Of a stretch of 64,000 nt of DNA, positions 26,763 to 42,372 are shown in pieces; the stretch's first letter is position 1; every line of letters begins with the position of its first letter. Location: IMG/VR virus record IMGVR_UViG_3300049027_000085, positions 6,165-70,164 of that record; one strand, written 5' to 3'. A program made the translations under genes and the position numbers. The notes below the pieces were generated by a model, which saw nothing but the letters and a program-made list of their open reading frames with translations, was not told the DNA's origin and ran no database searches. This DNA is from a virus.

Positions 26763-28805
26763 ATGTTGATCAACACCAGGGAGGCCTTCTTCGCCTCTCT
26801 TGACAAGTTCACAGACACGATAGTCCTTGACACCGAGACCGACGGGCTCGACGTGTGGCAGGACAACAAGCAGTGCGGGATAGGTGTCTGCACCACGAAC
26901 GAGGAGACGTTCTACTACCCGTTCCGCCACGACGACGCCCGCAGCCCGTTACTCACACAGTTGGACGGGGAGCTCAACCTCCCGATGGACCTGCTGCACC
27001 TTCTGCTGGCGCGGATCTCACTGAGCAAGAAGATCATCGGCCACAACCTCAAGTTCGACCTGACCGCATTGGTGAAGGACGGCCTGGAGCTGCCAGACGA
27101 CGTCGAGATCGAGGACACCCTCTGCATGGCCCGGCTCTGCCTCCACGAACAGTACGCTGACATGGACCTTGAGAGCGTGGTCGACGCGATGCTGCCAGGT
27201 CAACAGGCCCACCGGTGGAAGACGGAGTTCAAGGAGTACCTGCGCCAATCCAAAGCTAAGAACTACGCCCAGGCCCACCCGAAGATCATGGCAGAGTACT
27301 GCGAGCGTGACTGCCTGATGACCTGGCGGGTCTACAACAAGATGGCTGAGTACATCACCGCCACCAAGCAGGACAAGATCAGGGAGCAGGAGAGGGAGCT
27401 GCTTCGGGTCGTCTGGGAGATGGAGCGCGACGGCCTGTACTTCGACCGTCAGTACGTCGAGGAGAAGATTGTCCAGCTCCGGGCCCGGCTGCTCGAGCTC
27501 GAGAAGGAGATCTGTGACGAGTTGGGCGTGGTGATCAACATCGGCAGCACGCCGCAGCTCACCAAGGCGCTTAACGACAAGGGGATATTCAGCCCCAAGC
27601 TGACGAAGGCCAAGAAGCAGTCGTGGGACAACGAGGCCATGAAGAAGCTTGGTCACCCGATCGGCGCGAAGATCCTCAACTACCGGTCGTTCCAGAAGAT
27701 GCTCGGGACCTACCTCGAGCCGCCGTTGAAGTGGGCAGACGACTACATGCACCCGAGCTTCAACCAGGCGCGCCCGATCACGGGCCGTTTCAGCTGCTCG
27801 AACCCGAACCTCCAGAACCTGATCAACGGCAGCTTCATCATCAAGAGCGAGAAGGTCGACAAGGAGAACACGAAAGCGCTGTCCGACGCGCTGCTCGGGG
27901 GTGGAGGCGTGGAACTCGCAGACGAGTTCGCTGACCTGATGGCGGTCAAGTTCAAGGGCACAGACAACGAGGTCGCGATCAAGAGGATGTTCGTCCCGCC
28001 GCCGGGCTACAAGCTGTGGTTGTTCGACGAGGACCAGATGGAGATGCGCGTGTTCGCTGACTACGTCGACGACCCGCTGCTCTCCAAGATGCTCGAGAGC
28101 GACAAGTTCGACTTCCACAAGTTCGTCGCGATGACGGTGTGGGGGGCCCAGCCCGGCAGTGACATGTGGAGCTTCTACCGCAAACTCGCCAAGGCGATCA
28201 ACTTCGGCCTGATCTTCTGCGTCGGCGACGAGAAGCTCGGGATGAAGATCCAGAAGACGACAGAAGAGGCCGGTCAGTACAAACTTGACTACTTCGCGCG
28301 CTTCCCGAAGGCGAGCCAGTTCATTCAGAACGTGATCGCCACGGTCAAGCAGCGGGGGTACGTGTTCAACCGGTTCGGCAGGCGGTACGTGATCGACCCG
28401 AACCGCGCCTACGTCGGCATCAACTACCTCGTGCAGGGGACCTCAGCCGACGTGATCAAGAACCGGATGATCGCCTGTGCGAAGTACCTCAAGTCGATCG
28501 GCGCGAAGAGCCGTATGGTGGTGCAGGTGCACGATGAGCTCGGGTTCTACATACACGAGTCCGAAGAGAGCTTCGTGCCGGCCAAGATCAAGGACATAAT
28601 GGAGGAGCGGACGATCAAGACGTTCCTGTCGGTCAAGGCGGAACGGGGCAACCCAAGCTGGGTGCAGAAGCAGCCGATGTGCGTCTACTGCGTGCAGCCG
28701 CTCACCAAGGAGGAGGACACCGGCGACGCGGTTCACCCGTGCGACGAGGAGCGCGCCAAGAAGGTCCGCCGGGTGCAGACCCGGCCGGCCCCGGTGGCAG
28801 CATGA
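26763..28805 (+). CDS. Family A DNA polymerase with 3'-5' exonuclease
   Basis: LDTETDG, GHNLKFD, YCERD, TGRFSCSNPNLQN, DEDQMEMR, KAINFG, NYLVQGTSAD, VHDEL. Confidence 0.95.
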   Translation: MLINTREAFFASLDKFTDTIVLDTETDGLDVWQDNKQCGIGVCTTNEETFYYPFRHDDARSPLLTQLDGELNLPMDLLHLLLARISLSKKIIGHNLKFDLTALVKDGLELPDDVEIEDTLCMARLCLHEQYADMDLESVVDAMLPGQQAHRWKTEFKEYLRQSKAKNYAQAHPKIMAEYCERDCLMTWRVYNKMAEYITATKQDKIREQERELLRVVWEMERDGLYFDRQYVEEKIVQLRARLLELEKEICDELGVVINIGSTPQLTKALNDKGIFSPKLTKAKKQSWDNEAMKKLGHPIGAKILNYRSFQKMLGTYLEPPLKWADDYMHPSFNQARPITGRFSCSNPNLQNLINGSFIIKSEKVDKENTKALSDALLGGGGVELADEFADLMAVKFKGTDNEVAIKRMFVPPPGYKLWLFDEDQMEMRVFADYVDDPLLSKMLESDKFDFHKFVAMTVWGAQPGSDMWSFYRKLAKAINFGLIFCVGDEKLGMKIQKTTEEAGQYKLDYFARFPKASQFIQNVIATVKQRGYVFNRFGRRYVIDPNRAYVGINYLVQGTSADVIKNRMIACAKYLKSIGAKSRMVVQVHDELGFYIHESEESFVPAKIKDIMEERTIKTFLSVKAERGNPSWVQKQPMCVYCVQPLTKEEDTGDAVHPCDEERAKKVRRVQTRPAPVAA

Positions 28806-28820
28806 AAAAAAGTTAAATAG

Positions 28821-28870
28821 GGTATTTACTTTTGCGGCAGAGCGCTGTACGATCTTCCTTGTACGGCGCT
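28821..28870 (+). promoter_or_regulatory. Phage promoter (copy 4) with inverted repeat over the -10
   Basis: GGTATTTACT-17-TACGAT. Inverted repeat AGCGCTGTAC/GTACGGCGCT. Confidence 0.75.
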
Positions 28871-28901
28871 TTCGCCGATTCTTTTGAAAGGAGAGCACAC
28901 C

Positions 28902-30461
28902 ATGAAAACCATGACTTTGACCGACAAGTTCACCGCCGCCCTTCTCGCAGGGACCCCGCTGATCGGGATCACCTGCTACGACCCGGAAGCCACCATGGCA
29001 ACCCTACACAAGGAGATAAAGAACCAACCCGTCATCCAGTGGGACTGCATACAGGGCTGGAGACCGCGCACCGACACGGGCAAGAACGCGATCAAAGAAG
29101 CGTGCAAGTCCGCTGACAAGGACGTCGTCGCCGGCAAGACCGCCAACCCGGTCGAGCAGTTAGAGGTCGCCGCCAACCTCCCTGAGGAAACGGTGCTGTT
29201 CATGATCAACAGCCACAACTACTTCGACAACCCGGCGTTCCTCCAAGCGGCGTGGAACCTGCGTGACGAGTTCAAGACGAACGGCCGGACGCTGGTGTTC
29301 CTCGCGCCGCACCTCAACATACCGGGCGACATCAAGAACGACGTGATCCTGTTCGACGAGGAGCTCCCTGACGCCGCCCAGTTGCGTGGGATCGTGAACT
29401 CCGTGATCGACCCGATGGTCAAGGCCAAGGTGTTCTCCCACGGCGTGACGGTCGACGACGCCGTGAGGGACCGCGCGGTCGACGCGCTCCGCGGCATTCC
29501 GGCGTTCGCCGCTGAACAGTGCGTCGCCATGGCGTCCACCGTCCAGGAGGCCGGCCTGCAGGTCGACCAGGTGTGGGAGTACAAGCGCAAGATGATCAAC
29601 GACACACCGGGCCTCAAGGTGTACGGCGGGACTGAGAAGTTCGACGACCTCGGCGGCTGCGACGCGGTCAAAACTTATCTGCGGCGCGTGATCGCCGGCA
29701 AAGACGCCCCGCGCGTGATCGTGTTCATCGACGAGGGCGAGAAGATGTTCGCCGGCGCCACCAACGACGTCGGAGACAACACGGGCGTGAGCCAAGACGC
29801 GCTGGGAACGACGCTCTCCTTCATGGAGGACAACGAGTGCGACGGTGCGGTCTTCGTGGGCCCTCCCGGAGCGGCCAAGTCCGCGATCGCCAAGGCGATG
29901 GGCAACGAGGCCGGCGTGCCGACGATCATGCTCGACTTCGGCGGCCTCCGCGGAAGCCTCGTGGGTGAAAGTGAGCGGAAGCTGCGCGAGGCGTACAAGA
30001 TCGTCGACGCGGTAGGCGGCGGCAAGGCGTTCTTCGTGATGACCTGCAACAAGGACGCGGCATTGCCGCCGGAACTTAAACGCCGGTTCACGAGTGGCAC
30101 GTTCTTCTTCGACCTCCCGACCCGCGAGGAGCGCGAGACCATTTGGAAGATCTACCTCGACAAGTACGGCTTCGATGACGTCGCGGTCAATGCGATCGAG
30201 TTCGACAAGGACTGGACCGGCGCGGAGATCCGCAACTGCTGCCGCATGGCGTACCGTCAAGGCATCAGCCTCGAAGAAGCGGCGCAGTACATCATCCCGG
30301 TCGCGGAGAGCGCTGCGGACCAGATCGAACGCTTGCGCAACTCGGCAGCCGGTAAGTACCTCTCGGCCTCGCGTGCAGGTAAGTACTCGCCGCACGTAGA
30401 AAAGCCGTCCCTGTCATCCTATGCTGAGTCTAAACAGCGTCAGGTGAAGACCAGCCGTTAA
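28902..30461 (+). CDS. Ycf46-like AAA+ ATPase with internally permuted ATPase domain
   Basis: Ycf46-type N-region. FIDEGEK precedes GPPGAAKS, then SLVGESE, TCN, LPPELKRRF, FFFDLP, WTGAEI. Confidence 0.85.
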   Translation: MKTMTLTDKFTAALLAGTPLIGITCYDPEATMATLHKEIKNQPVIQWDCIQGWRPRTDTGKNAIKEACKSADKDVVAGKTANPVEQLEVAANLPEETVLFMINSHNYFDNPAFLQAAWNLRDEFKTNGRTLVFLAPHLNIPGDIKNDVILFDEELPDAAQLRGIVNSVIDPMVKAKVFSHGVTVDDAVRDRAVDALRGIPAFAAEQCVAMASTVQEAGLQVDQVWEYKRKMINDTPGLKVYGGTEKFDDLGGCDAVKTYLRRVIAGKDAPRVIVFIDEGEKMFAGATNDVGDNTGVSQDALGTTLSFMEDNECDGAVFVGPPGAAKSAIAKAMGNEAGVPTIMLDFGGLRGSLVGESERKLREAYKIVDAVGGGKAFFVMTCNKDAALPPELKRRFTSGTFFFDLPTREERETIWKIYLDKYGFDDVAVNAIEFDKDWTGAEIRNCCRMAYRQGISLEEAAQYIIPVAESAADQIERLRNSAAGKYLSASRAGKYSPHVEKPSLSSYAESKQRQVKTSR

Positions 30462-30465
30462 CAAC

Positions 30466-30482
30466 GGGGGAGGAAACTCCCC
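30466..30482 (+). terminator. GNRA hairpin between the two AAA genes
   Basis: GGGGAG-GAAA-CTCCCC with no U-tract. Confidence 0.35.
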
Positions 30483-30510
30483 CACCATCGTTTGAAAGGA
30501 GAAGAAGATC

Positions 30511-32262
30511 ATGAGATTAGGAATACAGGCGAAATACGTAAGGGAAGTCATAGAAAAGATCGGCAAGGACGAGGCGTCATTCAGCATCGACCGGTGGAAG
30601 GACGGCGAGATCAGAGAGTACCTGGACTTCAGCAAGATGCGGACCGACGAGATCAAGGAGTTCGACAAGTTGCTGAAGCGGCTGGCGGAACAACCGTCCA
30701 CCAAACAGAAGTACGGTGCCGCATACAGGAAGTTCACCGAGTTCTTCACGCTGCTCACCGGTGACGTGGGCGGCAAAGCGATCAAGAAGCTGGACATGAT
30801 ACCGGCCGCGATCAAGTCTTACTTCAAGGACTCCGACAGAAAGTGGGTCTTCAAGGAGACGTCAGACGGCCTGCCCAACCCGTACTTCCTGACGAGGTGC
30901 TGGTACAAAGAGGCCCACTACCTGCGGAGCGGCGCTTACGTGCCCGCGACGACGCACCTCGTGATCACGGCGTGGCGGCAGGGCAAGCAAACCACCTCGT
31001 CCTTCTCGTGGCTGGCGAAGAACGTCGGCAAAGCGGGCAAGACGGTGCAGCAGCTGCTGTCGCAGCACGGGCTTCACATAGAGACCGACGCCGCGGTAGA
31101 GGCGTACTACGAGGAGTTCCACCGGTGCCTCGAGCTCCAAGAGCAGGTTGGGCTTCAGATGTCGTCACAGGGAACGGCGTTCCTCAAGGCTGAGAACAGG
31201 TGGTACTCACCAGCGGCTGTGGCAATGATACGTGAGGGCATCGCCACGAAGGTCGTGATCGAGGATCAGGATATTCGCAGCGATGACGACGAGTCGGAAA
31301 CATCCATCATGGACACCTTCTGGGACGTCGTCAAGGTCAGCAAGTTGCGCTCACGTAGACCGGTCTCCGACGACGACGATGAGGTAGAGGTCGAGGAGGT
31401 CGACGAGACAGACGACGACGAGAAGAAGCGGATCGAACTTCCGATCCACCCGTACCTCTACGTCTTCGACCTCGATAAGCACCAGTACGTCGACATTCAC
31501 ACGAAGAACCTGCTCGACTACAAGTGGAACAAGACGTTGGGCGATAAGCTGATCATCAAGGACGAGGACAAAAAGTTGATCGACCTCTTGATGAATCGCA
31601 CCGGGCAGAGCGTCAGCGACATCGTGTCCGGCAAGATGAACGGTGTCATAGTACTCGCTACCGGAAGCCCTGGGATCGGCAAGACACTGACCGCTGAGGT
31701 CTTCTCAGAGATGATCGAGAAGCCCCTCTACAATGTGCAGTGTTCACAGCTCGGCCTGAACGTCGATCAGATCGAGAAGAACCTCAGGAATGTGCTTGAC
31801 CGCGCTTCACGGTGGGGGGCGATCTTGCTGGTCGACGAGGCGGACGTTTACATCAGGAAGCGCGGCGAGGACATTCACCAGAACGCGATCGTCGGGGTGT
31901 TCCTGCGGCTGATCGAGTACTACCGCGGGGTGCTGTTCATGACGAGCAACCGGGGTGAAGAGATCGACGACGCGATCATCAGCCGTGCGACGGCATGGAT
32001 CAAGTACGAAAAGCCGTCTCCGGACCTCCTGGCGCGAATCTGGGATGTTCTGGGCAAACAGTACGGCGCGAACTTCAGCGACACGGACATCAAGCGTCTG
32101 TTGAAGATCCTGCCCGGCATCTCTGGCCGCACGGTCCGCAACCTGTTGAAACTTGCCAGGATGCTCGCTGGAGACTCACCGGTCACGGTCGACCTGATCG
32201 ACCAGGTCAAGGGGTACCAGCAGCTCGACGGGGACCCGCTGACTGAAGCGGCAAAAAAGTGA
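30511..32262 (+). CDS. AAA+ ATPase (canonical order) with long N-terminal region
   Basis: GSPGIGKTLTAE, LLVDEADV, FLRLIEYYRGVLFMTSNR, DDAIISR. Confidence 0.9.
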   Translation: MRLGIQAKYVREVIEKIGKDEASFSIDRWKDGEIREYLDFSKMRTDEIKEFDKLLKRLAEQPSTKQKYGAAYRKFTEFFTLLTGDVGGKAIKKLDMIPAAIKSYFKDSDRKWVFKETSDGLPNPYFLTRCWYKEAHYLRSGAYVPATTHLVITAWRQGKQTTSSFSWLAKNVGKAGKTVQQLLSQHGLHIETDAAVEAYYEEFHRCLELQEQVGLQMSSQGTAFLKAENRWYSPAAVAMIREGIATKVVIEDQDIRSDDDESETSIMDTFWDVVKVSKLRSRRPVSDDDDEVEVEEVDETDDDEKKRIELPIHPYLYVFDLDKHQYVDIHTKNLLDYKWNKTLGDKLIIKDEDKKLIDLLMNRTGQSVSDIVSGKMNGVIVLATGSPGIGKTLTAEVFSEMIEKPLYNVQCSQLGLNVDQIEKNLRNVLDRASRWGAILLVDEADVYIRKRGEDIHQNAIVGVFLRLIEYYRGVLFMTSNRGEEIDDAIISRATAWIKYEKPSPDLLARIWDVLGKQYGANFSDTDIKRLLKILPGISGRTVRNLLKLARMLAGDSPVTVDLIDQVKGYQQLDGDPLTEAAKK

Positions 32263-32267
32263 AAATA

Positions 32268-32312
32268 GGTATTTACTTTCTGACAGGGACGTGTTAGGAT
32301 CGTTCCTGTCAG
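32268..32312 (+). promoter_or_regulatory. Phage promoter (copy 5) with inverted repeat around the -10
   Basis: GGTATTTACT-17-TAGGAT. Inverted repeat CTGACAGGGACG/CGTTCCTGTCAG. Confidence 0.7.
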
Positions 32313-32338
32313 TTACTATTCTACGGAGGTTACGAACC

Positions 32339-32728
32339 ATGTCACACATCACTCAGATCAAACTCGAGATCAAGGACCTCGAGGCCCTCAAGACGGCGGC
32401 TGCCATGCTTGAGCTCGAATACAAAGAGGGGGTCACCAAGCACAAGTACTACGCAGGCAAGTACGGCAAGTGCGACCACGTGATCAGCGTGCCCGGCAAC
32501 AAGGACGCCTACGAGATCGGCGTCGTGGCCAACCCGAACGGGACGTACAAGCTCAACTGGGACAGCTTCGCCGGCGGCTACGGGCTGGTTGAGAAGGTCG
32601 GCGAGAGCGCGTACAAGCTGAAGCAGGAGTACGGCGCCGCGGTCGCTGAGAAGCAGCTGCGCCGACAGGGGTACCGTGTCAAGCGACAGGTCGTGGACGG
32701 GAAGCTCGTGCTTCGCGGTGTCAACTAA
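32339..32728 (+). CDS. DUF1257 (Ycf35)-like protein
   Basis: MSHITQIKLEIKDLEAL..A...YEIGV....G.Y.L.WD...LKQEY...RRQGYRV. Confidence 0.75.
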   Translation: MSHITQIKLEIKDLEALKTAAAMLELEYKEGVTKHKYYAGKYGKCDHVISVPGNKDAYEIGVVANPNGTYKLNWDSFAGGYGLVEKVGESAYKLKQEYGAAVAEKQLRRQGYRVKRQVVDGKLVLRGVN

Positions 32729-32738
32729 GGAGGCCGTC

Positions 32739-32936
32739 ATGAAACAGCAAACAGAAATCGTCGTCGAGATCGACCGCGAGGGCAACCCGAAGGTCGAGGT
32801 GAAGGGTCACGTGGGCCCAGGTTGCAAGGAGCTCACCAAGCAGATCGAGCTAGCGCTCGGCGCAGCGGAGAGCGAGAACAAGAAGCCCGAGTTCTACCGG
32901 CAGGAGGTGAAGCATGTTGCTACCAATCGTCGTTAA
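32739..32936 (+). CDS. DUF2997-like protein
   Basis: EIVVEIDREG.PKVEVKG..G.GC.ELT..IE.ALG....KPEFY. Confidence 0.75.
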   Translation: MKQQTEIVVEIDREGNPKVEVKGHVGPGCKELTKQIELALGAAESENKKPEFYRQEVKHVATNRR

Positions 32937-33243
32937 CGAGGACGGATCGATCGAGCAGATCGTCACCGATGACATGGTCGCCTTCGAGGGGGAGGCGACC
33001 ACCACTAGGGCCAGCAACGTCGTGCCCGAGCCGTTGTTCAAGCAGCTCGTGTTCATCAAGCTGCGGGAGTGGTTCGGTGATCAAGGCAGGGTCGCGGACT
33101 GGACACGCCGTTGGAAGGGGCCGCACATCGCGTGCATGGTCGACGGTCCGGTCTTAGGCCCGTACCCCAGCCGGCAGGCGGCGTTGGACGCAGAGATGCG
33201 GTGGTTACTCAAGAACAGGTTCGGAGGTGAAAGTCATGAATGA
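32914..33243 (+). CDS. Conserved hypothetical protein of the AAA/DUF1257/DUF2997 neighbourhood
   Basis: RASNVVP...GPVLGPY.SRQAALDAE..WL. Confidence 0.6.
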   Translation: MLLPIVVNEDGSIEQIVTDDMVAFEGEATTTRASNVVPEPLFKQLVFIKLREWFGDQGRVADWTRRWKGPHIACMVDGPVLGPYPSRQAALDAEMRWLLKNRFGGESHE

Positions 33244-33739
33244 TGAAATGAAGGACGACGCTCTCGACTTCGAGATGCAAGAGGATATAAACGAAATTAA
33301 AGAGGCGGCCGAGCAGTTTGGCAAGCTGCTGAGTGACAAGGCGGGCAAGCAGGCCCAGAAGCAGATCGAGGCGCTCTCGGACGAGCAGCTCAAGAACAGG
33401 ATCATCGAGCAGGGCGCCAACGTGTTCACGCGTGCCTGTAACAAGACGATCGACGTGATAGGGGTCGCCAAGATCCTCGGTCTCAACGACGACCACGTCA
33501 AGGACCTCGTGAGGCAGCACTGTGAGTTCCAGGTCGACCTGCTGGTCCGGCTCGGCGTCGAGCTCCCGCCGGACCTCGACGTCGCCGTCAAGGAGCTGTA
33601 CGACATAGAGATCGGCGGCGTGGACGAGTTCATAAAGGCCCACAGCGACGGGGCACACCCTGGGTGCATACTGGACGAGTACCAGAAACGGAACAGCTGG
33701 GACGAGCTGATCGAGGAGGTGGGCCATGGCGTTAACTAG
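33236..33739 (+). CDS. Acidic hypothetical protein
   Basis: GGAGG RBS. Overlaps its neighbours by a few nt. Confidence 0.6.
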   Translation: MNDEMKDDALDFEMQEDINEIKEAAEQFGKLLSDKAGKQAQKQIEALSDEQLKNRIIEQGANVFTRACNKTIDVIGVAKILGLNDDHVKDLVRQHCEFQVDLLVRLGVELPPDLDVAVKELYDIEIGGVDEFIKAHSDGAHPGCILDEYQKRNSWDELIEEVGHGVN

Positions 33740-34112
33740 AGAACAAGAAGCGGACTACACGGTGCGCGGCAAGAAGTTCTGTTTCACCGGCGCCCTCACG
33801 ATCTTCACCAGGGACCAGGCCAAGGCGCTGCTGATCGAGCGTGGCGGCATCGTCCACCTGTCGGTCAAGACCGACACCGACTACCTGATCTACGGCCACG
33901 ACACCGGCCAGACGAAGATGAACGCCGCCAGGGCCCGCGGGACCAACCTCAGATCCGAACAGTGGCTGCTCGCGGCGATCACGGCGAATGCCCCCGGGCT
34001 GGTACCGCGCAAGAACATTCCGGACGTGACGACGGTCTTCCAGCAACCCCAGGCTGAGGTGAAGGAGAGCATCGAGATGAAGCCGAAGGTACGCAGAGTC
34101 CGCGTCCGCTAA
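33726..34112 (+). CDS. Stand-alone BRCT-domain protein
   Basis: GKKFCFTGAL..FTRDQA..LLIERGG.V..SV...TDYLI.G...G.TKM..A...G....SE.W (NAD-ligase-type BRCT). Ends in RRVRVR. Confidence 0.85.
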   Translation: MALTREQEADYTVRGKKFCFTGALTIFTRDQAKALLIERGGIVHLSVKTDTDYLIYGHDTGQTKMNAARARGTNLRSEQWLLAAITANAPGLVPRKNIPDVTTVFQQPQAEVKESIEMKPKVRRVRVR

Positions 34113-34137
34113 AATAATTCACAAAAAGTTGAAAAAA

Positions 34138-34187
34138 GGTATTTACTTTTACTCCGTAGCGCTGTACGATCTTCCTTGTACGGCGCT
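34138..34187 (+). promoter_or_regulatory. Phage promoter (copy 6), sharing a 30-bp identity with copy 4
   Basis: GGTATTTACT-17-TACGAT. AGCGCTGTACGATCTTCCTTGTACGGCGCT is identical to 28841-28870. Confidence 0.75.
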
Positions 34188-34308
34188 TATAAACACCGTG
34201 CGCGTTTGAAAGGGGGAGCGTTGAGCCGCTCCTAAAGATCAAGGGAATCGTGGCCGGAGCCGTTCCGACCGATTTTTATCAACCCTAACCGCACCATGGA
34301 GGAGCATC

Positions 34309-35514
34309 ATGAAAAACGAAACATTCACCGCAGAGCAGTTCACCAAGTTCGTCAAGGACATGTCCGCAGCAGTCAAGCGTGTCTACAACACGCCGGGGAT
34401 CGTCGATGAGATGACGGTCGAGCAGCGGAACGACTTCAAGGCCCGCGTCGAGAAGTACACCCCGAGCAACCCTGAGGGTCAGGGACGCAAGTCAACGGTT
34501 CTTTACACCCTCGAGACCACGGTCGCGGTCGAAGCCGCCTCCACCAACGGCAGCGTTGCCACGCCGGTCAACGACATGTCGGCTGAGGTCGCCAAGCGGA
34601 TCGCGGAAGAGAGCATCGTGATCGAGATTCACATCCGTCAGCCCGGGTTCACCAAGAAGATCGACGCGAACGACTTCCTTGACCGCAACGGCAACAAAGG
34701 CAAGGTCGAGTCCGACATCCTCCACGTGCACCAAGACCTGATCGACAAGCGCCACGTGAAGAACCTGATGGACCACCGTCAGAGCCTGCTCGACTACATC
34801 CGATCGTGGCAGGTGCCCGGCGGCATGTTGACGCCCGGCGGCGGTCAGTTCCTCGTGCCGCTCGCGGCTCAGGAAAAGATCTACGCCAAGATCGAGGAGT
34901 TCGGCGCCGAGCGTCAGGGCCTGCTCGACAAGTTCGCAGAGAGCTGGGACACGATCGTCGAGGAAGCCAAGAAGAAGCGTGGCGTCTTCTTCGACGACGG
35001 GGACTACCCGAGCTTCAAGTCGATCCGCGACCGGTTCACGCACGACTTCCGGTTCATCAGCAACAAGGTGCCCGACGAGCTGAAGAAGCTCGGCCTTGAG
35101 ATCTATCAGAAGGAGTTCGACAAGCAGATGCTGAACTGCGCGACGGCCGCGTCCGAGATTCAGGCGGCCCTACGTGAGGGTTTCCTCGGGTTGATCGAGC
35201 ACTTCACCGACCGGTTGGGGGTGGATGAGGAGACCGGCAAGCCGAAGCGTTTCAACGAGAAGCGGATCACGGACATCCGTGAGTTCCTCGAGACGTTCCA
35301 GGCGCGGAACCTGACGAACGACACGCAGCTCGCCGCCCTCTGTGAGAAGGCGCAGACGCTGATCGAAGGTGTGGACGCTGCCACGATCCGCAGCAACGCG
35401 GACGCCCGCGCGAGCCTCAAGCAAGCGTTCGACGACCTGACCACGGCGACGAACGAGCTGATCGGAACCAAGACCCGCCGCGTGCGGGTCGCGGCCGCCA
35501 GCAACGGACAGTAG
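34309..35514 (+). CDS. DUF3150-like protein
   Basis: FLVP..., GVFFDDGDYPS...IRDRF, NLTNDTQL..L..KA, IRSNADAR. Ends in RRVRVAAASNGQ. Confidence 0.6.
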   Translation: MKNETFTAEQFTKFVKDMSAAVKRVYNTPGIVDEMTVEQRNDFKARVEKYTPSNPEGQGRKSTVLYTLETTVAVEAASTNGSVATPVNDMSAEVAKRIAEESIVIEIHIRQPGFTKKIDANDFLDRNGNKGKVESDILHVHQDLIDKRHVKNLMDHRQSLLDYIRSWQVPGGMLTPGGGQFLVPLAAQEKIYAKIEEFGAERQGLLDKFAESWDTIVEEAKKKRGVFFDDGDYPSFKSIRDRFTHDFRFISNKVPDELKKLGLEIYQKEFDKQMLNCATAASEIQAALREGFLGLIEHFTDRLGVDEETGKPKRFNEKRITDIREFLETFQARNLTNDTQLAALCEKAQTLIEGVDAATIRSNADARASLKQAFDDLTTATNELIGTKTRRVRVAAASNGQ

Positions 35515-37960: not shown

Positions 37961-38075
37961 GTCGAATACTTTGTTGGATCGGTTGGCACTACTGGATGCC
38001 GAAGCCGTACACCGATACTTACAACCAAGCGTGCTGGCGATGTGGACTGATGCGCCGATATTTGGGGGATAAGAA

Positions 38076-38471
38076 ATGGCAATACATCGGGAAATGACCA
38101 AAACGACCAACGCCCCGAACGCGGGGGATGCGGCGGGGATGGTGGAAGCGGCGAGGGCTTTCAACGCATCTTGCGAATCGTGCGGCAGTATCGGACGGTG
38201 CGACCTGTGCATGGCATCGTTCGCCGCCTCTCACGCCGCCGCCCTACAGCGGGAGAACGCGAGGATGCGTGCCGCCCTTGAGCACTACGCGGACGACAAT
38301 AGCTGGCTTTGCGATACGTGCGACGACCCGAATTGGCGTTGCACGCCGGACACCCACCGAGTAGCGAATTGGCAAGGGCGTTCTCAGCACGGCCCCGACA
38401 TCGCCCGTGCCGCCCTCACCGGCGAGGAAAGAGAGGTGAGAGATGGCGACGTATTACGACAGACTCTGTGA
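38076..38471 (+). CDS. Cys-rich hypothetical protein
   Basis: CxxC pairs. ENARMRAALEHYAD...GPDIARAAL is a common phage early-gene module. Confidence 0.55.
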   Translation: MAIHREMTKTTNAPNAGDAAGMVEAARAFNASCESCGSIGRCDLCMASFAASHAAALQRENARMRAALEHYADDNSWLCDTCDDPNWRCTPDTHRVANWQGRSQHGPDIARAALTGEEREVRDGDVLRQTL

Positions 38472-38866
38472 AGAAGACCTGTGCGACGATCAACACTATG
38501 AACCAGAGGAAAGCACAGCACAACGGGTGGGCCGAGGAGCTGAAGATCTACCTGAGCAAGATCCTGATGTGCGAGATGTGCAGGATCCGCAAGGCGACCG
38601 ACCACGCCCACAGGCTGAAGAGACGGCTGATCGGCTGGAGGACGGACTTGGACCGGCTGGAGTACTTCATGGCGGCGAAGCTGTGCCGGCGCTGCCACAA
38701 GTCATTGGACGAGTACGTCGGCCCCCAGGACGCGCACGAGAGGATGTTCCTGATCATCACTCGGATAGCCGTGGCGCGTCCGAGGGGCTCCGTCCATGGT
38801 GAGTATGTCCCGACCCACCCGGTGACGCTCTGGGACCCCCAGTTGATCTACCGCTACAGCCGATAA
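38468..38866 (+). CDS. HNH-like zinc-binding protein
   Basis: CEMC....TDHAH...LCRRCH. GTG start overlaps the upstream TGA. Confidence 0.55.
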   Translation: MKKTCATINTMNQRKAQHNGWAEELKIYLSKILMCEMCRIRKATDHAHRLKRRLIGWRTDLDRLEYFMAAKLCRRCHKSLDEYVGPQDAHERMFLIITRIAVARPRGSVHGEYVPTHPVTLWDPQLIYRYSR

Positions 38867-38881
38867 AAAAAAGTAAAATAG

Positions 38882-38920
38882 GGTATTTACTTTCTGGCCA
38901 GAACTGTATAGAATGGTTCT
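38882..38920 (+). promoter_or_regulatory. Phage promoter (copy 7)
   Basis: GGTATTTACT-17-TAGAAT with upstream A-tract. Inverted repeat AGAACTGT/ATGGTTCT. Confidence 0.7.
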
Positions 38921-38954
38921 CGTTGAGCAAATCTGTTTGAAAGGAGAACGAGCC

Positions 38955-39311
38955 ATGATTACCGAAAAATACGCAGAAGAGAGGGGTTACACCTACCACG
39001 GCGCATACAGCTGGAACCAGGAAGAGATGAAGAAGCGGGCCGCTGAGCTCAGAAAAGAGGGCAACAAGGCGATGGTCGTGTACAGCCCTGCAAGCCCGCT
39101 CAGCCGCAGCAGTTCAGGCGGGGGCTACTCGGTCTACTGGATCGAGTCGGAGGAGAACCGCAGGGCGAGACACCTCAAGGAGGCGAACGGCCTCGCGTGG
39201 CGCGCGCAGAGCAAGATCAGCCGGCTGATCAACGAGTTGGCGGAGGCGAACAAAGAGCTGGAGGCGGCGCAAGCGAGGGTCAAGGAACTGACCGAGGGAG
39301 TGCAGTCATGA
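38955..39311 (+). CDS. Hypothetical protein
   Basis: TTGAAAGGAG RBS after the promoter. Confidence 0.65.
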   Translation: MITEKYAEERGYTYHGAYSWNQEEMKKRAAELRKEGNKAMVVYSPASPLSRSSSGGGYSVYWIESEENRRARHLKEANGLAWRAQSKISRLINELAEANKELEAAQARVKELTEGVQS

Positions 39312-39586
39312 GCACCAGATGGAAGGGGTACAGCCAGACAGACGGCACGGGCGTGCACACGGAGGGCCTCGCGATGAGGACCAACCCCAAGATGCGCACG
39401 TTCTGCTGCATGGTGTGCCGTGAGGAGCTGACGATCATGGACTACCCCGTGACACTGCACATGAACAAGCACAGGAAGCAGGGCCTAACGACCGACGCGG
39501 ACAAGCACGACCTGAAGAGCCAGCTCTTCCCGAACACGGCGAGGAAGATCCGAGAGTTTCTGAAGAGGGACAGCAACAGAAGATGA
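39308..39586 (+). CDS. Hypothetical zinc-finger protein
   Basis: CMVC...HMNKH. ATGA coupling. Confidence 0.55.
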   Translation: MSTRWKGYSQTDGTGVHTEGLAMRTNPKMRTFCCMVCREELTIMDYPVTLHMNKHRKQGLTTDADKHDLKSQLFPNTARKIREFLKRDSNRR

Positions 39587-39798
39587 AAACAGCAAGGATC
39601 AAGAGCCGGTCGAAGCTCCCCCATTTCACGAAGAAGGTCAACAAAGGGAGACTAGAGCAGTTGAGACAGAAGGCCGACCTGCAGAGACGACTCAGAGGGG
39701 GTAAAGGCGATGAACGATCAAACAAAGGAGCTGATAAAGCGAATAAAGGAACTGCCGAAGGGGAGGCTCCTGAACCTGGAGCACTTCCCCGTGCCTGA
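39583..39798 (+). CDS. Small basic hypothetical protein
   Basis: ATGA coupling. Confidence 0.45.
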   Translation: MKTARIKSRSKLPHFTKKVNKGRLEQLRQKADLQRRLRGGKGDERSNKGADKANKGTAEGEAPEPGALPRA

Positions 39799-39916
39799 CG
39801 ACTACAGAGGGGTCAAGACGGATCACCTCAAGGAGTTGATCGATGAAAAAGAGAGGACTGAGAGCGTTCAGGACAGAGGCGATGGGGATAGAAGGGTTCG
39901 TGGCTGCAGCGAGTAG
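39710..39916 (+). CDS. Small hypothetical protein
   Basis: GAGGGGG RBS. Confidence 0.45.
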   Translation: MNDQTKELIKRIKELPKGRLLNLEHFPVPDDYRGVKTDHLKELIDEKERTESVQDRGDGDRRVRGCSE

Positions 39917-40115
39917 GTCCGAGGCGATGTACTGGACACAAAAAGCTGCCAACGAGGTCGGTTACCCGGTCAAGTTCACTGAGGTGAAGGTCAACCGTGC
40001 GCCGGAGTTCGACGAATGGGCTACGGAGAGGGTGAGGTACCGTTGTTGGACTAGAGAAACATTGTTAAACAGTAGATCTCACGATTTACAGAACGAGATC
40101 AGCGCGCTACAGTGA
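39843..40115 (+). CDS. Hypothetical protein
   Basis: AAGGAG RBS. Confidence 0.55.
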   Translation: MKKRGLRAFRTEAMGIEGFVAAASRSEAMYWTQKAANEVGYPVKFTEVKVNRAPEFDEWATERVRYRCWTRETLLNSRSHDLQNEISALQ

Positions 40116-40119
40116 GACA

Positions 40120-40944
40120 ATGTCGAAGGCAACGGAGAGAAAGACAGGCCGGATGACCAAGACGAGCAAGGACTTCGTCGAGGCAGCGGCGACCATAGGG
40201 GTGAGCGGGACACAGGCCCTCAGGGTGGCCAGGATCAAGAACCCGGCACAGCAGAAGAAGAACAAACCGACGGTGATAGTGGATAACCCGACGGACGGAA
40301 GCCCCCAGGGAGGGAGCCCCAACCTTGACCACGTCCAGGCGTACAACAAGAGCAAGGCGCTGCGGAACTCGATAGAGGAGCGCAAGAAAATGGCCCTCGA
40401 GTTCTGTGACGTCACCCCTGAGATGGTCCTCGGAGCCACGGCGATGAGGGCCTTCGCCAGCATAGACGGCGCGTTCGACGAGGACGGCAGGTTCGACATA
40501 CGCCTCGCGAGGCAGACAGGGGCGATCCACCTGATCAAGAAGCTGGAGACCACCCAGTACGGCCTCAGGGCCGAATTTTACAGCAACGAGAGCGCGCAGC
40601 AGCAGCTCGCGAGCTACATGGGGATGGAGTTCGCCCCCAAGGACCAGAAGGACGACGTGGAGAGCCTGAAGGCGGGGATCGAGGCGATCGCGAGGGGGAT
40701 CGCGAGGGAGAGGAAGACAGAGATCACGCACGAGATCCGCGTCGAGGCGTGGGAACGCGTGGCCAAGTGGGTCAAGGAGACCAAGGCGCGGTACAGCGCC
40801 TCGGCGATCGAGGAGGCAGGGAAGCAGTATGGAGTCACTGGGGGCGGTGGCGTGGGCGATCATGGCGGGGGTTACCCTCGCCTGGCTGCTGATACGGTGG
40901 GTGGAGAGGCCGATATATCCGGGGGGAAGGATGCCGGCCAGTAA
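40120..40944 (+). CDS. terS: Probable terminase small subunit
   Basis: FDEDGRFD...IKKLETTQYG.RAEFY....AQQQLASYMG resembles TerS cores. Lies upstream of terL. Confidence 0.6.
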   Translation: MSKATERKTGRMTKTSKDFVEAAATIGVSGTQALRVARIKNPAQQKKNKPTVIVDNPTDGSPQGGSPNLDHVQAYNKSKALRNSIEERKKMALEFCDVTPEMVLGATAMRAFASIDGAFDEDGRFDIRLARQTGAIHLIKKLETTQYGLRAEFYSNESAQQQLASYMGMEFAPKDQKDDVESLKAGIEAIARGIARERKTEITHEIRVEAWERVAKWVKETKARYSASAIEEAGKQYGVTGGGGVGDHGGGYPRLAADTVGGEADISGGKDAGQ

Positions 40945-41332
40945 GAGGAGCAACCAGACACTGACGCACTTCACCGTGACCACGCCCGACCGGTCCGCGA
41001 GGGAGGTCAGCAGGCAGCTGCAAGAGGAGCTGGAGAGGACGAGGGAAGAGATCCTGGGCGGCACCGTGCGCGGGAGACCGCAGGTCATACCGTTCCCCGA
41101 CCGCCGGCCGACACCGAGCCCTGTGGGAGAATCGCCGCTGACCGCGGCAGGTGCGAGGTACGTCCAGGAGATGCAGCGGAACATGACCGACAACTTCCGC
41201 GAGATGATGAACGCACACTTCGTGTTCCAGGACCCGCCGTCGACGGCCGCGCGCAACAAGGAGCCAGAGGTGAAGGAGAACATGCTCGAGACGGTCAAGA
41301 GGGGCAAGAGGAGGGTCAGGGTAGGTGGCTAA
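40829..41332 (+). CDS. Hypothetical protein ending in RRVRVGG; alternative start at 40931 omits the TM helix
   Basis: Two in-frame starts, each with an RBS-like sequence. Confidence 0.55.
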   Translation: MESLGAVAWAIMAGVTLAWLLIRWVERPIYPGGRMPASKRSNQTLTHFTVTTPDRSAREVSRQLQEELERTREEILGGTVRGRPQVIPFPDRRPTPSPVGESPLTAAGARYVQEMQRNMTDNFREMMNAHFVFQDPPSTAARNKEPEVKENMLETVKRGKRRVRVGG

Positions 41333-41657
41333 GAAGAACTGGGGGGACGAGGTGAGGGACAGGATCGGCCAGATGCCCACGCGTCAGGCCGTCACACCGT
41401 TCCACGTGCAGCGCGAGGGCAGGAAGCCGAGGTACAGCGACCACGAGCTCGGGTCAGCGCCCCCCGTGACCGTGGATGCGCTGGGGCGGGCCGCTGACCG
41501 TGCCGCGGAGATCCAGAGGTCTTACCACATCTTCGGCGACGGCTACAGCGGCGTGGTCTATGAGGAGCGGACCGTGTACTCGGACCCCACCCCGGAGGTC
41601 AAGCTCGTGCCGTTGGAGACGGTCGCGCCGAGGCAGAGGCGGGTCAGGACGGCATAA
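41325..41657 (+). CDS. Hypothetical protein ending in RRVRTA
   Basis: GTG start overlaps the upstream gene end. Confidence 0.55.
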   Translation: MAKKNWGDEVRDRIGQMPTRQAVTPFHVQREGRKPRYSDHELGSAPPVTVDALGRAADRAAEIQRSYHIFGDGYSGVVYEERTVYSDPTPEVKLVPLETVAPRQRRVRTA

Positions 41658-41712
41658 GGAAGCATCACAGACAGGACAGAAGGCGCGTCTCGGCGCGTCC
41701 AGGGGAGAGACA

Positions 41713-42372
41713 ATGGCGTACAGACCGACACAAGAGGACCTCAACCAGGTCGCTGAACTGGCCACGATACTGGGCGGCTACGCCCGTGAGGAGGTGGGGT
41801 GGCGCGACTGCGCCGGCTTCCAGATCTTGTGGGACCAAGGTTTACAGCACTACAAGATCAAGCTGAGGGGCCGTGCCGATGCCTACCCCTGCACGAGGAT
41901 CCTGAGCCTCTCGACGCTCCGCAACATGATCACCGGGAGGGGCGACCCGTCGGCCGTGATCAGGGACATGTGGGACCAGGTACGGATGGAGCAGCGCGCG
42001 GTCGGCAACAGGGTGTCCGGCACGCCGGTCGTCGAGGACCCGAGTGTGCCTGAGGGACAGGTATACGGCGTGACCAGCCCCAGCCAGCAAGCGGCGCTGC
42101 GGAACCTCGGCTACACCGGCGGCGACCCGGTCGGGCTCGGCGGCTACAACTATCAACCGCTTCGACTCACTGCTGAGGAACGTGAGCGGATGGAGCAGCG
42201 CAGGCTCGAGAGGGAGGAGTCGGCCCGTGTCCGTGAGGCGCAGCGCCAGCGACAGGCCCAGGAGGAGCAGATGCGGCGTGAAGAGGAGGCGATCCAGCGC
42301 GAGGTGCGGAGGATCGAGAACGAGGTCAAGCAGGTTACAATCGGGGCGAGACGTGTTAGAGTGCGTGCCTAG
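41713..42372 (+). CDS. Hypothetical protein with coiled coil, ending in RRVRVRA
   Basis: GGGGAG RBS before ATG 41713. Confidence 0.6.
   Translation: MAYRPTQEDLNQVAELATILGGYAREEVGWRDCAGFQILWDQGLQHYKIKLRGRADAYPCTRILSLSTLRNMITGRGDPSAVIRDMWDQVRMEQRAVGNRVSGTPVVEDPSVPEGQVYGVTSPSQQAALRNLGYTGGDPVGLGGYNYQPLRLTAEERERMEQRRLEREESARVREAQRQRQAQEEQMRREEEAIQREVRRIENEVKQVTIGARRVRVRA

What the first reader, a model, noticed from the sequence alone, without database searches (positions are those of the whole stretch)
28761..42372. Shared C-terminal RRVR[V/T] tail on unrelated proteins: candidate addressing tag for a phage AAA system
Seen: five non-homologous proteins end almost identically. They are BRCT KVRRVRVR* (34092), DUF3150-like KTRRVRVAAASNGQ* (35476), GKRRVRVGG* (41309), RQRRVRTA* (41637) and GARRVRVRA* (42349). 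Looser versions end the polymerase (KVRRVQTRPAPVAA*, 28767) and the permuted AAA (KQRQVKTSR*, 30435). Codons differ between copies (CGC AGA GTC CGC GTC; CGC CGC GTG CGG GTC; AGG AGG GTC AGG GTA; AGA CGT GTT AGA GTG), so selection acts on the peptide and this is not a DNA repeat. None of the capsid, portal or tail genes ends this way. Inference: a beta-strand docking motif or degron that routes a set of phage proteins to one partner, such as the phage AAA/DUF1257/DUF2997 machine, a host protease or chaperone, or a host hub that the three small terS-terL proteins titrate as decoys. I know of no description of this tag.
Basis: partly seen in the sequence, partly recalled or inferred. Interest (0 to 1): 0.88.

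Follow-up and report, generated by a model that had tools for sequence, protein, structure and literature searches.

The report
Shared docking tail, phage AAA+ module
Eight to ten unrelated proteins of this uncultured phage, among them its DNA polymerase, end in the same short arginine-valine peptide, which is this phage's version of a conserved tail of an unstudied Cdc48-like ATPase gene set and most likely plugs them all into one binding site that is still unknown.

Summary
In 62 curated genes (20,508 aa), R[RKQ][VI][RKQ] occurs 10 times, always within the last 24 residues. Codons differ and no DNA repeat covers the sites.

It is not a private invention of this phage. The first Arg of RRVRV is the only invariant column in 125 DUF3150-like proteins, and 143 of 157 family members end in R-x-h-x-h. 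The neighbouring Cdc48/p97-like ATPase carries the same tail.

Across 51 distinct phage loci the two tails resemble each other more within a locus than between loci (0 of 10,000 shuffles). Extra proteins carry their own locus's version (13 observed against 3.0 expected). A plasmid shows the same pattern.

Best reading: a docking tag tied to the AAA/DUF1257/DUF2997/RASHV/DUF3150 module, here in an unusual all-basic form copied onto polymerase, a BRCT protein and five or six small proteins upstream of terL. The reader protein is unidentified. Degron, host-hub and decoy ideas have no support.

This scan noted the same kind of tail before on other phages. My paper searches found no description.

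The parts
26763..28805 (+). Family A DNA polymerase. A C-terminal extension ends K-V-RRVQT-RPAPVAA (motif at 28767-28781).
   Evidence: Pfam DNA_pol_A 4.6e-72. Motif. The 67%-identical homologue in L002 ends about 20 residues earlier and has no tail, so the tail was added in this lineage.
28902..30461 (+). AAA1, a two-tier Cdc48/p97/Rix7-like ATPase and core of the module. Its tail is K-Q-RQVKT-SR (motif at 30438-30452).
   Evidence: Pfam AAA. Model pLDDT 93.4. Foldseek finds Rix7, NVL and p97/Cdc48 at E 3e-12 to 1e-10. The tail Arg (R513) is at least 90% conserved in 72 homologues. L002 ends RKVKVNKEQ.
30511..32262 (+). AAA2, a second classical AAA ATPase with an acidic stretch. It is untagged and is not part of the conserved module.
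   Evidence: Pfam AAA, and phrog_29662 at 7.8e-81. No homologue in L002, L003 or L005 by tblastn at E 1e-3.
32339..32728 (+). DUF1257 protein. Untagged module member and a candidate reader.
   Evidence: Pfam DUF1257 1.3e-05. Homologues in 52 of 85 loci. Weak charge-swap lead at residue 133 of the 145-aa ORF.
32739..32936 (+). DUF2997 protein. Untagged module member.
   Evidence: Pfam DUF2997 5.4e-11. Homologues in 33 loci. Alignment A7.
32914..33243 (+). Small 'RASHVEP-motif' protein, here RASNVVPEP. Untagged module member.
   Evidence: No Pfam hit. Homologues in 27 loci. Alignment A8 has invariant R, S and P in the motif.
33726..34112 (+). BRCT-domain protein ending K-V-RRVRV-R (motif at 34092-34106).
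   Evidence: Pfam BRCT 3e-10. The 46%-identical homologue in L002 ends RQ-RRVRV-Q, while the linker before the tail differs.
34309..35514 (+). DUF3150-like protein, core of the module, ending T-RRVRV-AAASNGQ (motif at 35476-35490).
   Evidence: Family of 7468 clusters at E<=0.001. 3 of 10 members give sub-threshold DUF3150 hits. R390 is the only invariant column of 125 sequences. Model pLDDT 93.8; the tail follows the last helix (364-385) and has no secondary structure.
39308..39586 (+). 92-aa protein with RKIRE nine residues before the end (39542-39556). Weak candidate.
   Evidence: Frame supported by GC3.
39710..39916 (+). 68-aa protein ending D-RRVRG-CSE (motif at 39890-39904).
   Evidence: GC3 supports the frame to about 39880.
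40120..40944 (+). Probable small terminase subunit. Untagged; context only.
   Evidence: Protein atlas feature score 0.93 with 178 shared features, in Terminase_2 clusters. No Pfam hit.
40829..41332 (+). Protein B, 167 aa, with an N-terminal hydrophobic segment (probable membrane anchor). Ends K-RRVRV-GG (motif at 41309-41323).
   Evidence: The two Arg codons AGGAGG also serve as a Shine-Dalgarno-like site 10 nt before the GTG of gene C.
41325..41657 (+). Protein C, 110 aa, ending Q-RRVRT-A (motif at 41637-41651).
   Evidence: No Pfam or PHROG family.
41713..42372 (+). Protein D, 219 aa, with a Glu/Arg-rich helical region. Ends A-RRVRV-RA (motif at 42349-42363).
   Evidence: No homologue but itself in the 5.8-billion-protein search at near lengths. 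No usable atlas hit.
42387..42674 (+). Protein E, 95 aa, with RRVQM 19 residues before the end (42600-42614). Weak candidate.
   Evidence: Frame supported by GC3.

Best explanation
RRVR[VT] is this phage's version of a conserved C-terminal docking tail, R-x-h-x-h (h = V, I, L, F or M). That tail belongs to two core proteins of a five-gene mobile-element module. The module comprises a two-tier Cdc48/p97-like ATPase (AAA1), a DUF3150-like helical protein, DUF1257, DUF2997 and a small RASHVEP-motif protein.

The tail sits on a flexible extension after the last folded element. It most likely binds as a short extended strand to one site. That site is encoded by the element itself and co-evolves with the tail.

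In this lineage the tail has lost the usual acidic residues and become all-basic. It has been copied onto further proteins: DNA polymerase, a BRCT protein, a membrane-anchored protein and several small proteins just upstream of terL. These are thereby recruited to the same hub as the ATPase, as adaptors or clients.

Shown: the enrichment at C-termini, the conservation, the variation in step within elements, and the spread to extra proteins.
For: (1) Enrichment: 10 of 10 R[RKQ][VI][RKQ]. sites lie in the last 24 residues of their proteins, within 20,508 aa. Shuffles give 0.05 terminal hits against 6 observed.

(2) The constraint is on the peptide: five Arg codons are used and no repeat family covers the tails.

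(3) The tail is an ancestral family feature: R390 is the only invariant column in 125 DUF3150-like sequences. 143 of 157 members have R-x-h-x-h in the last 32 residues, with a median of 4 residues after it. The AAA1 tail Arg is at least 90% conserved in 72 sequences.

(4) Orthologues keep the tail while the linkers diverge. The DUF3150-like homologues at 69, 62, 51 and 51% identity end RRVRV, RKVRV, RRVKV and RAIRV. In L002 the BRCT, AAA1 and DUF3150-like proteins end RRVRV, RKVKV and RKVRV.

(5) Variation in step. AAA and DUF3150 tails of the same locus score 4.55, against 1.44 +/- 0.62 for shuffled pairings of 51 distinct pairs (0 of 10,000). Their net charges correlate (Spearman 0.56, n = 51).

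(6) Spread to other proteins. 13 other ORFs carry their own locus's tail, against 3.0 +/- 1.7 with another locus's tail, in 73 loci and 2333 ORFs (0 of 5000).

(7) The same pattern occurs outside phages. Plasmid CP114559.1 has AAA-DUF1257-DUF2997-DUF3150, with RKIRI on DUF3150, RKIRL on an unrelated 847-aa protein and RRLRG on the AAA.

(8) The tails are unstructured in monomer models with otherwise high confidence, as expected of a linear motif.

(9) AAA1 has the fold of the p97/Cdc48/Rix7 ATPases.
Against: - No reader is identified.
- The loci are related to each other, so the shuffle tests overstate independence.
- AAA1's own tail here (RQVKT) is looser than the clients' tails, and polA's (RRVQT) is also loose.
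- A host-encoded reader that differs between hosts would also produce tails that vary in step within an element.
- The all-basic composition fits nucleic-acid or membrane binding as well.
- In protein B the two Arg codons double as a ribosome-binding site for gene C, so one of the tails is under an extra DNA-level constraint.
- Proteins C and D, g39710 and E have no homologues in hand, so conservation of their tails could not be tested (for D).
Confidence: 0.6

Rival explanations
1. Substrate or degron tag. The tail marks proteins for unfolding or removal by AAA1, by the phage's second AAA ATPase, or by a host protease such as ClpXP. This would time the turnover of early and middle proteins.
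For: AAA1 has the fold of unfoldases. AAA2 matches a PHROG annotated 'ATP-dependent protease'. The tails are terminal and unstructured. Basic C-terminal ClpX signals of the MuA type exist (recalled, not from a call).
Against: - The ATPase itself carries the tail in nearly all loci, which is odd for a degron.
- The tail is invariant in a stable core partner, the DUF3150-like protein, over thousands of clusters.
- AAA2 is absent from relatives that keep the tail.
- 0 to 25 residues follow the motif, so a free C-terminus is not part of it.
Confidence: 0.15
2. There is no separate reader. The tails pair with each other as short strands, or bind the body of the DUF3150-like protein. The DUF3150-like protein or the ring of ATPase tails would then be the hub itself.
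For: The alternating R/V pattern suits strand pairing. Within-locus likeness of the tails is what strand-strand pairing would give. DUF3150 residue 143 is K/R in loci with acidic tails and D/E in 3 of 5 lineages with basic tails. A difference that large was reached by 55 of 2000 random lineage sets. pLDDT of the DUF3150-like tail block 391-400 is 74, which is not fully disordered.
Against: The charge-swap signal is weak and not corrected for three families tested. DUF1257 residue 133 gives a similar signal (42 of 2000). Neither monomer model shows strand secondary structure in the tail.
Confidence: 0.12
3. Generic basic tail. The Arg-rich ends bind DNA, RNA or anionic membrane without a specific protein partner.
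For: Net charge is +3 or more in this phage. The carriers include DNA-handling proteins: polymerase, BRCT, and neighbours of the terminase.
Against: The family-wide tail is net acidic in most loci (42 of the non-duplicate loci at -1 or below), yet keeps the same Arg and the two hydrophobic positions. The hydrophobic positions are restricted to V/I here. Simple charge would not demand a fixed order or the terminal position.
Confidence: 0.07
4. Chance, or a DNA-level element such as a repeat, terminator or ribosome-binding site, that happens to translate alike.
For: One tail (protein B) overlaps a Shine-Dalgarno-like AGGAGG. Two off-frame RRVR[VT] hits show the background rate in this G+C-rich DNA.
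Against: Different codons are used and the flanks are 37% identical. No repeat family covers the tails. Homologues conserve the tail through K/R and V/I exchanges. Shuffles do not reach the observed count.
Confidence: 0.01

Closest known systems
p97/Cdc48 with cofactors that bind through short motifs, and PUB/PUL domains that read the p97 C-terminal tail (PMC10641518 and PMC6995525: search listing and start of abstract only)
   Same: AAA1 has the two-tier p97/Cdc48/Rix7 fold. The ATPase ends in a flexible tail, and several unrelated proteins are tied to it by short linear motifs.
   Different: In p97 the tail belongs to the ATPase alone, and the cofactors carry other motifs that bind the N domain. 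Here the ATPase and its partners carry the same tail. The sequence (R-x-h-x-h) is unrelated to the p97 tail, and no PUB or PUL domain was found among the 20 window proteins scanned.
Proteasome-activator docking tails: HbYX of PAN/Rpt/archaeal Cdc48, and GQYL shared by Mpa and Bpa (recalled; PMC6017811 seen only in the search listing)
   Same: The same C-terminal peptide on unrelated proteins lets them dock, in turn, onto one ring-shaped partner. The carrier is an AAA+ unfoldase.
   Different: Those tails end in Tyr-X at the free C-terminus. This tail has no Tyr and is followed by 0-25 further residues. I did not look for a proteasome-like partner beyond the Pfam scans of 20 proteins.
Ycf46 (AAA) / Ycf35 (DUF1257) / DUF2997 genes of cyanobacteria and plastids (gene names seen in the listings; function recalled as unknown)
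   Same: The same Pfam families DUF1257 and DUF2997 sit next to an AAA ATPase.
   Different: The mobile-element form adds the DUF3150-like and RASHVEP proteins and the shared tail. I did not test whether the cyanobacterial proteins carry the tail.
RVxF docking motif of eukaryotic PP1 regulators, [RK]-x(0,1)-[VI]-x-[FW] (recalled)
   Same: Family-wide tails such as R-K-I-S-F or R-R-I-S-F fit this pattern. RVxF binds as a short strand with two hydrophobic anchors after basic residues.
   Different: This is a resemblance only. Here the last anchor is V or T, not F or W. No PPP phosphatase belongs to the module, and RVxF is not C-terminal.
Acidic C-terminal tails shared by T7 gp2.5 and gp4, which bind T7 DNA polymerase (recalled)
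   Same: Unrelated phage replication proteins share one C-terminal tail that docks them onto a common partner.
   Different: Opposite charge and a different motif. The partner there is the polymerase, whereas here the polymerase itself carries the tail.

Membership tests
Shared-tail AAA / DUF3150 / DUF1257 / DUF2997 / RASHVEP module of mobile elements (unpublished as far as my searches show; noted before in this scan) | The five module genes lie close together | tested here: met
   AAA1, DUF1257, DUF2997, the RASHVEP protein and the DUF3150-like protein lie at 28902-35514. The same order occurs in L002, L003 and Tunturi_3 and on a plasmid.
Shared-tail AAA / DUF3150 / DUF1257 / DUF2997 / RASHVEP module of mobile elements | The AAA and the DUF3150-like protein both end in R-x-h-x-h with a conserved Arg | tested here: met
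   R390 is invariant in 125 sequences. R513 is at least 90% conserved in 72 sequences. Here the tails are RRVRV and RQVKT, and the last position of the AAA tail is T.
Shared-tail AAA / DUF3150 / DUF1257 / DUF2997 / RASHVEP module of mobile elements | The tail version is shared within an element and differs between elements | tested here: met
   The loci are not independent, so the p-values are optimistic.
Shared-tail AAA / DUF3150 / DUF1257 / DUF2997 / RASHVEP module of mobile elements | Acidic residues follow the second hydrophobic position (family consensus D/E, D/E, E/D) | tested here: not met
   In this phage the tails are followed by R, A, G or nothing, and their net charge is +3. This is an all-basic variant, shared with L002, L016, L031, L044 and L064.
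HbYX / GQYL proteasome-docking tails | Hydrophobic-Tyr-X (or GQYL) at the free C-terminus | tested here: not met
   No Tyr in any tail, and 1-19 residues follow the motif.
HbYX / GQYL proteasome-docking tails | A 20S proteasome-like ring as partner | not tested
   Only 20 window proteins were scanned with Pfam. No proteasome family appeared among them.
RVxF PP1-docking motif | [RK]-x(0,1)-[VI]-x-[FW] | tested here: not met
   Here the last position is V, T or G. Many family members elsewhere do fit: F at that position in 58 of 143.
RVxF PP1-docking motif | A PPP-family phosphatase as reader | not tested
   None among the 20 proteins scanned. The rest of the genome was not scanned.
ClpX C-terminal recognition signal of the MuA type (recalled) | ClpX-dependent recognition of a basic C-terminal peptide | not testable with these tools
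   The host is unknown and no assay is possible.
DNA repeat or regulatory element | Conserved nucleotide sequence beyond what the codons require | tested here: not met
   59% identity within the 12 nt coding RRVR, against 37% in the 30 nt upstream. Five Arg codons are used. No repeat family covers the tails.
Pfam DUF3150 (PF11348) | Score above the gathering threshold of 24.9 bits | tested here: not met
   The window protein gives no hit at E 0.01. 3 of 10 family members reach 18-23.5 bits. A plasmid relative is annotated DUF3150. I therefore call it DUF3150-like, a distant relative.

The most novel reading that the evidence does not exclude
The tail is an address code of a mobile-element Cdc48-like segregase system. 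The module's untagged small proteins (DUF1257, DUF2997, RASHVEP) would form a multivalent hub. That hub would hold the ATPase together with whatever proteins a given phage has tagged. In this phage those are the DNA polymerase, a BRCT nick- or phospho-binding protein, a membrane anchor and proteins encoded next to the terminase genes. The machine would then organise or dismantle the replication-to-packaging apparatus at one place in the cell.
Probability: 0.15. Interest if true: 0.85.

Novelty: new variant of a known kind. Interest (0 to 1): 0.68.

Why it matters
The DUF3150-like family alone has 7468 clusters at 50% identity, and the module travels on phages and plasmids. My paper searches found nothing on what it does.

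A short shared tail gives a direct experimental handle. The set of tagged proteins in each phage gives a first list of that machine's partners or clients.

This phage is informative for two reasons. It has tagged its DNA polymerase and a run of genes next to the terminase.

Tried and rejected
Complex prediction. I sent DUF1257, DUF2997 and the RASHVEP protein, each with an alignment, together with residues 352-401 of the DUF3150-like protein as partner. The result was no answer (score 0.01, mark 0.32) and the controls were not run. This says nothing for or against binding, and AAA1 was not in the job.

Cis docking. The AAA1 monomer model, built on 72 homologues, leaves the tail without strand structure at pLDDT 60-69. 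It therefore gives no hint that the tail binds AAA1's own domains, although a hexamer could differ.

Fold of the DUF3150-like protein. Foldseek against PDB gave nothing below E 0.15. VIA wide gave only generic helical bundles over residues 257-391, at Z up to 9.7, below the level the tool calls meaningful for helical proteins.

I compared five lineages with basic tails against 42 loci with acidic tails.
- AAA1: no signal (662 of 2000 random sets reach the observed value).
- DUF3150 residue 143: 55 of 2000.
- DUF1257 residue 133: 42 of 2000.
These are leads only and are not corrected for the three families tested.

Relatives.
- Single-protein scans of IMG/VR with terL and with the DUF3150-like protein found nothing, as did the closer alignment A2.
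- The metagenome scan gave 3 loci.
- Protein D has no homologue other than itself at near lengths.
- Homologues of proteins B, C and E and of g39710 were not searched for in the large databases.
Their other tagged proteins are therefore unknown.

PADLOC gave only generic AAA matches (IetA, TRIP13) and no defence system.

The hit at 59133 (KRRVRTVS in the +1 frame inside gene 58262-59494) is 14 codons after a stop. The main frame reads through it normally, so I take it as chance. I also considered a frameshift joining the terS-like gene to protein B and did not pursue it: B has its own ATG and a Shine-Dalgarno-like site.

Supplementary files of papers were not consulted. No paper was read beyond search listings and the starts of abstracts.

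Full report
WHAT THE WINDOW IS. The window is bases 6165-70164 of a 70,164-base IMG/VR virus record estimated at 55% complete. It has about 60% G+C. Its early and middle genes lie on both strands, and a long rightward block runs from a DNA polymerase to the tail genes.

Pfam identifies the following:
- a family A polymerase (26763-28805)
- two AAA ATPases (28902-30461 and 30511-32262)
- DUF1257 and DUF2997 proteins
- a BRCT protein (33726-34112)
- a Lar-like protein
- a large terminase (42680-44497).

The 401-aa protein at 34309-35514 has no Pfam hit of its own. The protein at 40120-40944 looks like a small terminase subunit by language-model features (score 0.93 with 178 shared features, Terminase_2 clusters).

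A six-frame scan for R[RQ]V[RQK][VT] returns ten hits, all on the + strand. The other three are off-frame inside terL (44437), or sit in ORFs of 14 and 26 codons (59133 and 62386). These three give the background rate for this G+C-rich DNA.

A GC3 frame plot supports the reading frames of the small genes B (40829-41332), C (41325-41657), D (41713-42372) and E (42387-42674).

In a curated list of 62 genes (20,508 aa):
- RRV[RQK] occurs eight times. Seven have at most seven residues after them and one has 19.
- R[RKQ][VI][RKQ]. occurs ten times, all within the last 24 residues.
- The looser R.V[RK][VT] has six terminal and three internal hits.

With residues shuffled inside each protein of a cruder 105-ORF set, terminal hits average 0.05 (maximum 2 in 2000 shuffles) against six observed. 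That set lacked gene C because of an overlapping longer ORF call. No gene from terL to the window end carries the tail.

IT IS A PEPTIDE, NOT DNA. The Arg codons of six tails are AGG 6, CGC 4, AGA 4, CGG 2 and CGT 2. The 12 nt coding RRVR are 59% identical between copies, and the 30 nt upstream are 37% identical. The repeat search shows the 20 largest of at least 60 families, and none covers a tail. The largest family (D1) is a 66-nt intergenic element at 28806, 32253, 34123 and 38867. Its first and third copies begin within about ten bases after the stops of two tagged genes, polA and BRCT. One caveat applies: in protein B the two Arg codons AGGAGG lie 10 nt before the GTG of gene C and probably also serve as its ribosome-binding site.

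THE TAIL IS ANCESTRAL TO THE DUF3150-LIKE FAMILY. Homologues of the 401-aa protein keep the tail as identity falls:
- 69% identity: RRVRV
- 62%: RKVRV
- 51%: RRVKV
- 51%: RAIRV
- then RKVIL-ED, RRITF-EEE and similar forms.

A profile search of 1.84 billion representatives finds 7468 proteins at E<=0.001. Of 157 sequences in hand, 143 have R-x-h-x-h in the last 32 residues. The consensus is [P/R/K]-x-R-[K/R/A]-[I/F/V/L]-x-[L/F/V]-[D/E]-[D/E]-[E/D], with a median of four residues after the motif.

In an alignment of 125 of these sequences the only invariant column is R390, the first Arg of RRVRV. Three of ten members give sub-threshold hits to Pfam DUF3150, and a plasmid relative is annotated as DUF3150. 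'DUF3150-like' is therefore a fair name.

The AlphaFold model is confident (pLDDT 93.8). The last helix ends at 385, and residues 386-401 have no secondary structure. No solved structure matches the fold clearly.

THE ATPASE CARRIES THE SAME TAIL, AND THE MODULE IS CONSERVED. A syntenic metagenome contig (L002) has polA, AAA1, DUF1257, DUF2997, the small RASHVEP-motif protein, a 170-aa protein, BRCT and the DUF3150-like protein in the same order. Identities are 40-78%.
- Its AAA1 ends RKVKV-NKEQ.
- Its BRCT protein ends RRVRV-Q, although the linker before the tail differs.
- Its DUF3150-like protein ends RKVRV-ASAGD.
- Its polymerase stops about 20 residues earlier and has no tail. The polymerase tail here is therefore a recent addition.

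The second AAA gene of the window has no counterpart in L002, L003 or Tunturi_3.

The cultured Tunturiibacter phage Tunturi_3 has the same module. Its ATPase ends GRIIR and its DUF3150-like gp96 ends RKFHL-EGEEF. Two adjacent small ORFs, one of them unannotated, end in RVRV directly before the stop. These two look like tandem duplicates, because the DNA after their stops also reads alike.

A Candidatus Manganitrophus plasmid encodes AAA, DUF1257, DUF2997 and DUF3150 in a row. There DUF3150 ends RKIRI, an unrelated 847-aa protein two genes further on ends RKIRL, and the AAA ends RRLRG.

TESTS ACROSS 80 PHAGE LOCI. An alignment of AAA1 relatives retrieved 80 IMG/VR loci. Searches with profiles and jackhmmer over all ORFs of 85 loci found:
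- the ATPase in all 85
- the DUF3150-like protein in 70
- DUF1257 in 52
- DUF2997 in 33
- the RASHVEP protein in 27.

Many loci are cut by contig ends, and small proteins are easily missed. Nearly every ATPase and DUF3150-like protein ends in R-x-h-x-h.

Three tests followed:
1. For 51 distinct pairs, the tails of the two proteins of one locus score 4.55 by BLOSUM62 over six positions. Shuffled pairings score 1.44 +/- 0.62, and none of 10,000 shuffles reaches the observed value.
2. Their net charges correlate (Spearman 0.56, n = 51).
3. Among 2333 other ORFs of 73 loci, 13 end in a five-residue match to their own locus's tail. With the tail of a random other locus the figure is 3.0 +/- 1.7, with a maximum of 11 in 5000 permutations.

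By eye there are more such cases. The loci are related to each other, so these figures overstate independence. The direction is nevertheless consistent. The window's own count in the third test is an undercount, because B and C were lost to ORF overlap.

WHAT KIND OF MACHINE. The AAA1 model (pLDDT 93.4) matches the two-tier ATPases Rix7, NVL and p97/Cdc48, with E 3e-12 to 1e-10 and TM 0.33-0.54. Its last 19 residues are unstructured (pLDDT 60-69).

In that family, partners are recruited by short motifs, and the ATPase's own C-terminal tail is read by dedicated domains. I rely here on the search listing and on recall. What is unusual in this module is that the ATPase and its partners carry one and the same tail.

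MOST LIKELY MECHANISM. The tail is a docking tag for one site that evolves together with it.

Proteins that acquire the tail join the same hub. Here they are the polymerase, the BRCT protein, the membrane-anchored B, proteins C and D, the 68-aa protein and perhaps E and the 92-aa protein.

The enrichment, conservation, variation in step and spread are shown. I put this reading at 0.6.

RIVALS.
- A degron (0.15) is hard to square with the unfoldase carrying it, and with its invariance in a core partner.
- A model without a separate reader (0.12) would have tails pairing with each other or binding the DUF3150 body. It cannot be excluded and has one weak lead. DUF3150 residue 143 is K/R where tails are acidic and D/E in three of five basic-tail lineages (55 of 2000 random sets reach that difference). 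DUF1257 residue 133 gives a similar signal (42 of 2000).
- Generic charge binding (0.07) does not explain why mostly acidic tails elsewhere keep the same Arg and hydrophobic pattern.
- Chance or a DNA element is excluded.

WHAT IS SPECIAL HERE. This lineage has an all-basic tail (net +3). Most loci have acidic tails. Only L002, L016, L031/L061, L044 and L064 share the basic type. It is also the only case in my data where the DNA polymerase is tagged, and where a run of genes between the small and large terminase genes is tagged.

NOVELTY. My searches were:
- DUF1257 or DUF2997: 5 papers, none on this subject by title and abstract start
- DUF3150: 1 unrelated preprint
- Ycf46 with Ycf35: 17 papers, of which the 10 listed are organelle-genome papers
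- 'shared C-terminal' with bacteriophage, AAA+ and docking: 0 papers
- Ycf46 with Synechocystis and ATPase: 5 papers, none on tails by title.

I read only listings, so a description inside a paper's text, its supplements or a subscription journal could have been missed.

Those notes gave me the name of the RASHVEP protein and the p97 comparison, both of which I checked here.

I file the finding as a new variant of a known kind, namely short shared docking tails of AAA+ machines.

Noticed in passing
window 28806-28871, 32253-32318, 34123-34188, 38867-38932: Four copies of a 66-nt intergenic element that starts with an A-run followed by an AT-rich box (61-85% identity to the reference copy). The first and third copies begin within about ten bases after the stops of polA and BRCT. 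They probably mark repeated promoters or terminators of the early and middle operons.
   Followed up: no
window 40829-40944: The terS-like gene (stop at 40944) overlaps the start of protein B (ATG 40829) by 116 nt. From about 40830 the GC3 signal follows B's frame, so the last 38 codons of the terS-like gene look like an out-of-frame, Gly-rich read.
   Followed up: partly
window 30511-32262: The second AAA ATPase has a strongly acidic Asp/Glu stretch in its N-terminal half and matches phrog_29662 ('ATP-dependent protease') at 7.8e-81. It is absent from the syntenic relative L002. An acidic stretch beside all-basic tails is suggestive, but L002 has basic tails without this gene.
   Followed up: partly
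L005 11339-11721 (Tunturiibacter phage Tunturi_3, PP885686.1 about 68700-69080): Two adjacent small ORFs end in RVRV directly before the stop, and the DNA after the stops also reads alike, so they look like a tandem duplication. The second ORF is not annotated in the record.
   Followed up: partly
window 32914-33243: In this phage and in L002 the otherwise nearly invariant His and Glu of the RASHVEP motif are replaced (RASNVVP and RASNVLP). Both proteins also carry an insertion of about 25 residues after the motif. These are the same lineages that have the all-basic tail.
   Followed up: no
window 28674-28760: The polymerase has a Cys/His-rich C-terminal extension (CxxC ... H-x-C) that is shared with L002 and precedes the tail. 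It may be a zinc-binding add-on to a family A polymerase.
   Followed up: no
window 59127-59156: The +1 frame inside gene 58262-59494 reads KRRVRTVS followed by a stop, 14 codons after a stop in that frame. I take it as chance, since the main frame reads through normally.
   Followed up: yes
L075, L079, L081, L086 (about 4 kb upstream of the ATPase): In the more distant ATPase loci (22-27% identity), which have G-R-x-L-D-L tails and no detectable DUF3150 or DUF1257, a conserved protein of about 415-570 aa ends in S-G-R-G-L-R-D-L-L. It may be a different tagged partner in a variant module.
   Followed up: no
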